From assembly GCA_964035545.1 (NCBI GenBank), contig OZ037767.1:2801680-2865679 (forward strand): a DNA stretch of 64,000 bases, in the 5' to 3' direction. Origin of the DNA: Bugula neritina. Lineage: Eukaryota; Animalia; Bryozoa. The position numbers and the translations under genes were made by a program. Below are positions 48,626 to 50,219 of the stretch, piece by piece. Numbering within the stretch: position 1 is the first letter of the stretch; each line of letters opens with the position of its first letter. The notes under the pieces were generated by a model, which saw nothing but the letters and a program-made list of their open reading frames with translations, was not told the DNA's origin and ran no database searches.

Positions 48626-48710
48626 TATATAAATAGAGGTGACTTATAATTATATTATCCAATGGGTGTAAACACGTTACTACATACAAGCACTGTTTAA
48701 TATAAGCCAG
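48626..48710 (+). promoter_or_regulatory. TATA box and non-coding first exon of the small peptide gene
   Basis: TATATAAATA at 48626-48635 and a strong donor CAG|gtaaga at 48710. The matching acceptor is ttgtag| at 49180. Confidence 0.55.
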
Positions 48711-48789
48711 GTAAGAAACTATGAATTTATTTCTTTGTCTTGACAGACTATATTAGTTTGAATCAATAAAGCTGTGTCAGACTTTAGAT

Positions 48790-49113
48790 ATTATATATAT
48801 ATATATATATATATATATATATATATATATATATATATATATATATATATATATATATATATATATATATTATATATACATGTTTATTTTTATTTATTAA
48901 TTTGTTATTTTTTCTAAAAACATATACATATATATATATATATATATATATATATATATATATATATATATATATATATATATATATATATATATATATA
49001 TATATATATATATATATATATATATATATATATATATATATATATATATATATATTATATATACATGTTTATTTTTATTTATTAATTTGTTATTTTTTCT
49101 AAAAACATATACA
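48790..49113. repeat. Two (TA)n tracts, each followed by the same AT-rich tail of about 60 bp
   Basis: (TA)n plus ttatatatacatgtttatttttatttattaatttgttattttttctaaaaacatatacata occurs twice in tandem. Confidence 0.92.
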
Positions 49114-49194
49114 TAGTTCACAGACAATAAATGATGAATTTATTTATGTATATGTCTACTATTTCGCCCAATGCTTGTAGACCATAGAGTTAAT

Positions 49195-49941
49195 ATGAAG
49201 TTTCCTGCTTTGTTAGCAACTGCCATTATTTTCCTACTTTCACTTGGTAAGCAAAACATTAGTATATATCATATCAGTAATAAAACTTACTATATTACTA
49301 GTTCTGTTTTCAATAATCGTTTTAATGAAGTTAATAAAAATATAAGCATCGAACCTGTATCTGTATGAAACAAACTTTTAAGCATAACCAATAAAGTTAC
49401 TAGCATTTATTGTAATGATCCTTTGTAACAAAAATAAGGATTATAAGTTTGCAAAAACAAACTACAACAAAAAAGTGTTAAATATTTTCAACAGCTTCGA
49501 TGACAGAGGGATTCCGGTTTACTTCGTCCGGAAAAACATGCAGGAAACATTGTGAGAGGACTCACCACTCAAAGTACAGCTTGTTTCTCGGAGTTTGTAA
49601 ATGCTTTCACACGACAGAAGATCTTTATGGCAGTAATTAAATTTTGCACATCATGACATTTCTATACTGATCTGTAATATCTCCCAATGCATCATCTAGT
49701 TTTTAGACAATAAAACATTTGATGTACCTAATTAAAAACTCAAGTGCGTTTTTTATCAAGAAACAGTTTTAATCAGGTTCACAATATAAGTATAAATTAC
49801 AACATGTTTTTGAAAGAAGTTATAATCTTTCGTGATTTAGATGTCATTGATGAGCTACACAAACACACATATAAACATATACAGAGCTTTTTGGGTCCAG
49901 ATGGTAAAACTGTTAATGGCGTAAGCTGGTTCTCTGACTAA
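49195..49941 (+). CDS. Small secreted cationic Cys peptide precursor (CS-alpha-beta/defensin-like CxxxC...CxC)
   Basis: Exon 49195-49246 (MKFPALLATAIIFLLSL, phase-1 gtaagc donor) joins exon 49495 (caacag|) in frame: ASMTEG-FRFTSSGKTCRKHCERTHHSKYSLFLGVCKCFHTTEDLYG. It then either stops at 49640 (SN*) or splices 49632 to 49841, adding NVIDELHKHTYKHIQSFLGPDGKTVNGVSWFSD* (stop 49941). AATAAA near 49709 and at 50072. Confidence 0.75.
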
Positions 49942-50219
49942 GAAGGTATTCAGAGACAGGCTATGCATACTCCAGTTTCTTATTTCAATTTAGTTTGAGA
50001 ATTGGTCATACGTGGTAATTACCTCCCCCTTGCTACACAAAATATTTGAAAGCTCAACTGCCATAGGAAACAATAAATTTTCTGAAAACTCTGTCAACAT
50101 ATTGAATCAGAAGTAGAGAATATTAAACAAACAATTCCCAAACATATTCACACTTTGCCATCATTTTTAAGCTTAACTGCACAGTCTGCTGATTCAAGAC
50201 AAATCTAGACTTTGAATGC

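What the first reader, a model, noticed from the sequence alone, without database searches (positions are those of the whole stretch)
48626..50077. Cryptic gene for a secreted cationic 4-Cys defensin/myticin-like peptide
Seen: TATA box, a non-coding exon 1, a signal-peptide exon ending in phase 1, and an exon absent from the ORF track. Together they give MKFPALLATAIIFLLSLASMTEG / FRFTSSGKTCRKHCERTHHSKYSLFLGVCKCF, followed by an extension starting HTTEDLYG. The core has 7 K/R against 1 E, plus 3 His. Known: CxxxC plus CxC is the core of the cysteine-stabilised alpha-beta fold of invertebrate defensins. Mussel myticins and mytilins have a signal/mature/C-terminal-extension precursor. Unusual: only 4 Cys are present, so the third canonical disulfide is missing. 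Inference: this is an undescribed minimal two-disulfide antimicrobial or toxin-like peptide, possibly with short and long C-terminal isoforms. It is the best candidate for novel biology in this window.
Basis: partly seen in the sequence, partly recalled or inferred. Interest (0 to 1): 0.85.

Follow-up and report, generated by a model that had tools for sequence, protein, structure and literature searches.

The report
Bryozoan two-disulfide defensin-fold peptide gene
A small intron-split animal gene that is conserved in the moss animal Bugula neritina encodes a predicted secreted four-cysteine peptide, predicted to take the two-disulfide defensin fold already known from centipede venom and likely used in host defence, although neither its expression nor its activity is shown.

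Summary
The gene is real at the level of conserved coding sequence. The claimed splice sites, ATG and CxxxC...CxC core are at the stated coordinates. A hypothetical Bugula neritina protein (KAF6033949.1, E 1.4e-11) aligns without gaps to the 65-residue spliced product: 38/65 identical overall, 24/32 in the core, with all four cysteines in register. The genome's DNA run also holds a second copy of the signal exon with the same acceptor, length and phase-1 donor. Two AlphaFold models give helix-strand-strand, and the best fold matches are scorpion short toxins, mytilin and insect defensins, all weak. The peptide is not a mytilin or myticin, which have eight cysteines. The long isoform with exon 4 is unresolved, and the Bugula protein ends at exactly the short length. 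Exon 1 and expression are untested because no RNA run was available. Verdict: an undescribed, probably bryozoan, family in a known fold class. Antimicrobial defence is my best guess (0.5); signalling or ion-channel roles remain open.

The parts
48626..48635 (+). TATA-like box (putative promoter)
   Evidence: Sequence only. The region is AT-rich, and no start site was mapped.
48655..48710 (+). Putative non-coding exon 1; the 5' end is a guess. It holds an upstream ATG at 48662 with a 12-codon ORF.
   Evidence: Consensus donor CAG|GTAAGA at 48711; upstream ORF. No transcript or paralogue evidence (one search had almost no cover here).
49181..49246 (+). Exon 2: 14 nt of UTR plus the first 17 codons of the signal peptide and one base (phase 1)
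   Evidence: Best of 1711 open 17-codon frames in 44000-49480 against the Bugula N-terminus (BLOSUM 35, next best 24). A paralogous contig keeps the acceptor, length and donor (tables 7-8).
49247..49494 (+). Intron 2 (phase 1, GT-AG, 24% GC)
   Evidence: Splicing here gives an ungapped 65-aa match to the Bugula protein.
49495..49640 (+). Exon 3 coding part: end of the signal peptide, mature core and 10-residue acidic tail, stop TAA at 49638-49640
   Evidence: phmmer E 1.4e-11 to P0001; 42% GC against 24% in intron 2, Fisher p 0.0002.
49512..49637 (+). Predicted mature peptide, 42 aa, with C10-x3-C14 and C29-x-C31; predicted helix 5/7-16, strands 21-25 and 28-32, short helix 34/35-39
   Evidence: fold matches.
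49709..49714 (+). AATAAA, candidate poly(A) signal of the short form
   Evidence: sequence only.
49841..49941 (+). Possible exon 4 (long 96-aa form with a 41-residue anionic extension), reached from the weak donor after 49632; unresolved
   Evidence: For: GC 38% against 24% in intron 2 (p 0.012), extension with 6 D/E against 3 K/R. Against: weak donor, 8 of 48 acceptor-like sites have an equally long open frame, and the Bugula protein stops at the short length.
50072..50077 (+). AATAAA, candidate poly(A) signal of the long form
   Evidence: sequence only.

Best explanation
This conserved intron-split gene encodes a predicted secreted peptide that likely folds as a two-disulfide cysteine-stabilised alpha/beta mini-protein and likely acts as an antimicrobial host-defence effector of a colonial filter-feeding animal, probably a bryozoan. 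Shown: the exon 2-3 reading frame, its conservation in Bugula neritina, and a second copy of the signal exon in the same genome. Predicted: cleavage after residue 23, pairing C10-C29 and C14-C31 that ties the helix to the second strand, with Ser/Thr5 and Leu24 standing where three-disulfide relatives carry the third bridge. Inferred: the cationic core (7 K/R against 1 E in both species) binds anionic microbial surfaces, with the conserved hydrophobic L-F-L hairpin and N-terminal F-R-F as the membrane- or ligand-contacting face. The short acidic tail would damp the charge until release, as proposed for mytilin extensions.
For: Homologue: E 1.4e-11, 65 aa against 65 aa ungapped, 24/32 core identity, 4 Cys in register. 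Paralogous exon 2: 32/35 matched bases (table 8), plus 19/30 and 17/30 in the two flanks by my hand comparison table 7; the acceptor, UTR length and GTAAG donor are kept, and the hydrophobic codons show synonymous Ile and Leu changes. Hydrophobic N-terminus with Kyte-Doolittle 9-residue means up to 2.9. Both AlphaFold runs gave helix-strand-strand (mean pLDDT 74.9 and 73.7). The first 6 of 44 and first 11 of 36 Foldseek matches, and all 11 of 42 chains with Z of 2 or more, are short scorpion toxins, mytilin or defensins (MarkTX-7 placed there from recall). Atlas neighbours are scorpion short toxins at 0.82 and termicin, nematode antimicrobial peptides and drosomycin-like clusters at 0.79-0.84; these are leads only. 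The cationic core followed by an anionic tail resembles the mytilin precursor (PMC7168163).
Against: No activity or expression data. All fold matches are weak (Foldseek E of 1.0 or more; VIA Z at most 3.5; Atlas under 0.9). No Pfam or PDB sequence match. The 2ds-CS-alpha/beta prototype Sm2 is not antibacterial (PMC12284004; PMC7232367). The core is more conserved between the two species (24/32) than the exon-2 signal part (8/17), the reverse of the hypervariable-mature pattern described for the mussel CRP-I family (PMC4558851, abstract start); this fits a fixed endogenous target as well as a fixed microbial one. The N-terminal GXGCP motif of the lipid II-binding defensin subfamily is absent. 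The Gly before the CxC is Thr in Bugula.
Confidence: 0.5

Rival explanations
1. The peptide has the same fold but is an endogenous signal or receptor ligand (cytokine-like, developmental, settlement or colony cue) rather than a microbe killer.
For: The mature part is better conserved than the signal part. A plant defensin-like receptor ligand, LURE1.2 bound to PRK6, is the third VIA match (Z 3.2, rmsd 4.1, 37 aligned). Myticins have cytokine-like properties (PMC7168163). Sm2 has no antimicrobial or tested channel activity.
Against: The strongly cationic core with an acidic tail and at least two gene copies are typical of defence peptides (inference). No receptor is known.
Confidence: 0.25
2. 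It is an ion-channel-acting toxin or deterrent aimed at predators or competitors, like scorpion short toxins or centipede 2ds-CS-alpha/beta toxins.
For: The top Foldseek match in both runs is cobatoxin 1 (rmsd 1.3 A over 25-28 columns). Atlas neighbours are scorpion short toxins. SsTx and SpTx1 are two-disulfide K+ channel blockers.
Against: The scorpion toxin signature Lys-Cys-X-Asn (PMC5705969) is absent; both species read Ser-Leu-Phe-Leu in the first strand and hairpin. Bryozoans have no known venom apparatus (recalled). Fold similarity shows no function.
Confidence: 0.15
3. The window copy is a silent or decaying gene, or the conserved frame makes a peptide with a different fold (for example a metal-binding Cys/His peptide).
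For: No transcript evidence either way. There are 3 His in the core. Model confidence is modest (pTM 0.42). Intron 1 holds a long AT microsatellite with a duplicated flank.
Against: Intact frame, consensus splice sites, ungapped conservation with Bugula. Only 1 of the 3 core His is conserved. A signal peptide implies an oxidising compartment, which favours disulfides.
Confidence: 0.1

Closest known systems
Bugula neritina hypothetical protein EB796_007746 (KAF6033949.1, UniRef100_A0A7J7K5P4)
   Same: 38/65 identical without gaps from its second Met; same four Cys, cleavage site and acidic tail length.
   Different: The database model has a 24-aa N-terminal extension (probably a gene-model read-through into the intron; inference) and a fifth, terminal Cys. 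It is uncharacterised.
Two-disulfide CS-alpha/beta (2ds-CSab) class: centipede SLPTX15 peptides SsTx and U-SLPTX15-Sm2a, also SpTx1
   Same: Four Cys, with a CxxxC helix tied to a beta-sheet by two disulfides (PMC7232367; bioRxiv 2025.10.27.684718). Described as widespread in prokaryotes and eukaryotes (PMC12284004).
   Different: No sequence match was detected. SsTx is 53 aa against 32-42 aa here. This is not a venom animal. The best fold matches are compact three- and four-disulfide peptides.
Mussel mytilins and myticins
   Same: Predicted CS-alpha/beta fold (mytilin 2EEM: Z 3.4, rmsd 1.6, 30 aligned). Signal, cationic core and anionic extension. Mytilin genes have four exons, as in the long model (PMC7168163).
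   Different: Eight Cys and four disulfides there, four Cys here. No Pfam myticin match. The extension here is 10 aa (41 aa only if exon 4 is used).
Scorpion alpha-KTx short toxins (cobatoxin 1, BmBKTx1) and insect defensin-like peptides (nasonin-1M, termicin, lucifensin)
   Same: Closest predicted geometry (rmsd 1.0-1.3 A over 25-28 columns). [quoted passage not shown]
   Different: The third disulfide is absent, the Lys-Cys-X-Asn signature is absent, and there is no GXGCP or XTCD N-terminal motif.

Membership tests
2ds-CS-alpha/beta fold class | CX3C motif on an alpha-helix and CXC on the second beta-strand | tested here: met
   C10/C14 in the predicted helix and C29/C31 in strand 28-32 in both models; definition in PMC5308243 section 2.1. 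Predicted, not solved.
2ds-CS-alpha/beta fold class | Only two internal disulfides (no third N-terminus-to-strand-1 bridge) | tested here: met
   Four Cys in the window peptide and the same four in the Bugula core; Bugula has one extra Cys at its last residue.
2ds-CS-alpha/beta fold class | Connectivity C1-C3, C2-C4 | not testable with these tools
   Model coordinates are not returned; the pairing is inferred from superposition on CS-alpha/beta peptides.
2ds-CS-alpha/beta fold class | Structural match to solved centipede SLPTX15 peptides | tested here: inconclusive
   Fold searches gave only weak scores for any chain.
Mytilin / myticin | Eight Cys, four disulfides | tested here: not met
   Four Cys; definition in PMC7168163.
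Mytilin / myticin | Signal peptide, cationic core and anionic C-terminal extension | tested here: met
   Core 7 K/R against 1 D/E; tail 0 K/R against 2 D/E in the short form, 3 against 6 in the long form.
Mytilin / myticin | Four-exon gene | tested here: inconclusive
   Exons 1 and 4 have no transcript support.
Invertebrate three-disulfide defensins (GXGCP or XTCD subfamilies) | Six Cys and an N-terminal GXGCP or XTCD motif | tested here: not met
   Sequence; motifs defined in PMC12284004; no Pfam Defensin_2 hit.
Scorpion alpha-KTx | Scorpion toxin signature with Lys-Cys-X-Asn before the final CXC | tested here: not met
   No Cys in strand 1; Ser-Leu-Phe-Leu in both species; signature in PMC5705969.
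Antimicrobial peptides (functional class) | Kills or inhibits microbes | not testable with these tools
   Needs a bench assay.

The most novel reading that the evidence does not exclude
This is the first identified bryozoan CS-alpha/beta effector family: a compact, naturally two-disulfide defensin with scorpion-short-toxin geometry and a mytilin-like precursor (perhaps a four-exon gene with alternative short and long tails) that is antimicrobial. It would show that the third disulfide is dispensable for killing, answer whether the proposed ancestral 2ds-CS-alpha/beta fold could be antimicrobial, and offer a candidate regulator of the bryozoan's bacterial symbionts.
Probability: 0.3. Interest if true: 0.68.

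Novelty: new member of a known kind. Interest (0 to 1): 0.43.

Why it matters
Bryozoan immunity is barely described at the peptide level. My literature searches returned no bryozoan CS-alpha/beta peptide; the one relevant passage is a big defensin in Flustra foliacea. A conserved, unannotated family gives a concrete candidate. It also makes an open question testable: PMC12284004 notes that the two-disulfide class may be ancestral to defensins, yet its prototype is not antibacterial. A 32-42 residue two-disulfide peptide is easy to synthesise and assay. The fold class itself is known, which limits the surprise.

Tried and rejected
No RNA holder listed; this says nothing on expression. No whole genome is held, so paralogues could not be counted. 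Word-index protein searches with exon 3 found nothing at 25-83 aa or at 84-2000 aa (1 candidate, none scored), although the 89-aa P0001 is in that collection; with the two-sequence alignment only P0001 came back (1 of 5 candidates). Pfam and PDB sequence searches gave no match for the peptide; the one row (Dicer, E 1.9) is chance. P0002 (E 1.9e-4) is a 698-aa tandem-repeat translation without the CxC and was rejected. The in-window tblastn hit at 31761 on the minus strand (7 of 9 residues, E 0.36) has no hydrophobic stretch or donor after it and was rejected. A metagenome DNA pattern for exon 2 gave 2 loci (L001, L002), neither encoding a signal peptide or exon 3. The prokaryote genome scan gave 1 of 72 stretches (L003), which is antisense to an ABC-ATPase-like ORF and lacks the CxC. 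The viral scan gave 0 of 118. No paralogous exon 3 lay at 80% likeness, and one search had almost no cover over 47520-48775; both are uninformative. The centipede 2ds structures were not among the listed fold matches, which does not exclude them. The Atlas structure search used a poor model of the whole P0001 (pTM 0.25) and was disregarded. Rfam gave 0 matches in 44000-53000. Earlier scan findings returned nothing. SignalP is not available, so the signal peptide rests on hydropathy and the homologue.

Full report
Setting. The window is AT-rich animal DNA (25-41% GC per 2 kb) with intron-split genes. Pfam finds a galactose-3-O-sulfotransferase at 4.2 kb, an XRN helical domain at 18 kb, a homeodomain at 36-37 kb and, weakly, a B12-binding domain at 61 kb. 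No whole genome is held. The organism is probably a bryozoan. This is inferred only from the one homologue below and was not tested with housekeeping genes.

Observation. Every coordinate checks out. TATAAA is at 48628, a consensus donor follows 48710, and an acceptor ends at 49180. The ATG is at 49195, followed by 52 coding bases and a phase-1 consensus donor after 49246. The next acceptor ends at 49494, and the frame runs to TAA at 49638-49640, giving 65 aa. A weaker donor after 49632 joined to 49841 gives 96 aa. The core has 7 K/R, 1 E, 3 H, and Cys at mature positions 10, 14, 29 and 31. The Cys motif alone is not enough: 27 of 100 Markov resamples of 30-50.1 kb contained one.

Independent support 1, a homologue. 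phmmer of the exon-3 frame against 1.84 billion representatives gave 2 proteins at E up to 0.001. P0001 (E 1.4e-11) is Bugula neritina hypothetical protein EB796_007746, KAF6033949.1. From its second Met it is 65 aa and aligns without gaps to the 65-aa spliced window product: 38/65 overall, 8/17 in exon 2, 24/32 in the core and 4/10 in the tail. The four Cys are in register, and A-E-A|F stands where the window has T-E-G|F, which supports cleavage after residue 23. Exon 2 is the best of 1711 open 17-codon frames upstream when scored against the Bugula N-terminus (35 against 24), so the exon 2-3 junction is independently supported. The other hit, P0002, is a tandem-repeat translation and was dropped.

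Independent support 2, a paralogue. The only run that holds the DNA is X1, which is probably the window's source and is not on record as RNA. Besides the identical contig (depth 122), a 167-base contig (depth 74) lies on 49192-49226 with 3 differences. I compared its loose ends by hand with the window. They match 19/30 upstream, including a 12-base run across the acceptor, and 17/30 downstream, with GTAAG at exactly the same phase-1 position. The seven codons before the donor read I-I-M-I-I-P-L against I-I-F-L-L-S-L, with synonymous changes at the shared residues. This divergence is too great for an allele, so I read it as a second gene copy. Its exon 3 was not seen.

Short or long. The long form has some support. 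GC rises from 27% to 37% at 49841 (p 0.03). The 41-residue extension is anionic (6 D/E against 3 K/R). An AATAAA follows at 50072, and mytilin genes have four exons with an anionic extension (PMC7168163). Against it, the donor lacks both the -1 G and the +5 G, and 8 of 48 acceptor-like sites nearby have an equally long open frame. An AATAAA also follows the short stop at 49709, and the Bugula model stops at exactly residue 65 with T-K-C where the window has G-S-N, so the G-T of the window's donor cannot sit at the same codon position there. The Bugula entry is a prediction whose exons I could not see. My estimate is about 65% short only, 25% long or both, and 10% something else. Exon 1 rests on motifs alone, and an upstream ATG at 48662 opens a 12-codon ORF.

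Fold. Two AlphaFold2 runs (single sequence, and with the Bugula row) gave a helix at 5/7-16, strands at 21-25 and 28-32 and a short C-terminal helix, with mean pLDDT 74.9 and 73.7 and pTM 0.42. No Foldseek match reached E 0.001. The first 6 of 44 and first 11 of 36 matches are short scorpion toxins, mytilin or insect defensins, with rmsd as low as 1.0-1.3 A over 25-28 columns. The wide VIA search (59 of 48,161 chains with Z of 2 or more, none at 5) is led by nasonin-1M (Z 3.5, rmsd 2.3, 33 aligned) and mytilin (Z 3.4, rmsd 1.6, 30 aligned), with unrelated chains close behind. All 11 of 42 re-aligned chains with Z of 2 or more are of this kind. The Atlas neighbours, 0.82 for scorpion short toxins and 0.84 for termicin, are below the 0.9 bar. 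Each line is weak, but they agree with the motif: a CX3C helix tied to a CXC strand defines the fold (PMC5308243). I put the fold at about 0.8.

Mechanism. I commit to antimicrobial defence at 0.5. Shown: the frame, its conservation and the paralogous signal exon. Predicted: secretion, cleavage and two disulfides. Inferred: a cationic amphipathic core binding microbial surfaces, damped by the acidic tail. Against: Sm2, the prototype of the two-disulfide class, is not antibacterial. The lipid II-linked GXGCP motif is missing. The mature part is better conserved than the signal part, which also fits a ligand for a host receptor (0.25). A channel toxin (0.15) is weakened by the absence of the Lys-Cys-X-Asn signature. 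A silent gene or another fold gets 0.1.

Known versus new. The peptide works like a defensin-fold effector but is not a mytilin, myticin, classical defensin or alpha-KTx by their defining cysteine arrays. It has no Pfam or PDB sequence match. Searches for bryozoan defensins or for the Bugula locus tag found no description of this family; most subscription papers are not searched.

What I saw of each paper. Passages: PMC7232367, PMC12284004, bioRxiv 10.1101/2025.10.27.684718, PMC11116330, PMC5705969 (one passage) and PMC7203481 (one passage). Passages plus one whole section: PMC7168163 (Introduction) and PMC5308243 (section 2.1). Search listing and start of the abstract only: PMC4558851. Dash et al. 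2019, which defined the class, is not held and is known to me only as cited. Its sequence lists and supplements, which I could not see, may already include bryozoan members and bear on the novelty claim.

Verdict. A real, unannotated small gene family, well spotted from raw sequence. It is a new member of a known fold class with an untested function. Interest 0.43.

Noticed in passing
window 48785-48930 and 48969-49115: Direct duplication inside intron 1: AT microsatellite plus the same 60-70 base flank, 98.6% identical over 147 bases. It is either a tandem duplication or an assembly artefact.
   Followed up: partly
window 50071-50194: A 611-base contig of run X1 (depth 92) matches this stretch downstream of the second AATAAA with 13 differences over 50099-50194. 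It could be the 3' flank of a paralogous gene or a dispersed repeat.
   Followed up: no
P0001 residues 1-24: The Bugula model's N-terminal extension ends V-D-Y-R-L-K-M, and the window's genomic frame upstream of its ATG reads V-D-H-R-V-N-M. This suggests the database model reads through the same acceptor and 14-base UTR, and that its start is mis-predicted.
   Followed up: partly
window 48662-48700: Upstream ATG with a 12-codon ORF close to the presumed cap site of exon 1.
   Followed up: no
window 52680-53726 (-): 348-codon open frame next to the peptide gene, with only a weak beta-propeller Pfam hit (E 0.038). It looks like an NHL-repeat protein (recalled label).
   Followed up: partly
window 36384-37130 and 40131-40685 (-): Two-exon homeobox gene (Homeodomain E 9.6e-21), NK2.1-like by recall; it is the nearest conserved neighbour on the left of the peptide gene.
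   Followed up: partly
window 4200-4730 (+), 16000-28600 (+), 56000-63600 (-): Exons of a galactose-3-O-sulfotransferase (E 1.2e-14), an XRN exoribonuclease (E 1.6e-13) and a probable methionine synthase (B12-binding E 0.011, name recalled), with tandem-repeat-filled introns.
   Followed up: partly
window 47327-47394: Four copies of a 17-base tandem repeat upstream of the gene.
   Followed up: no
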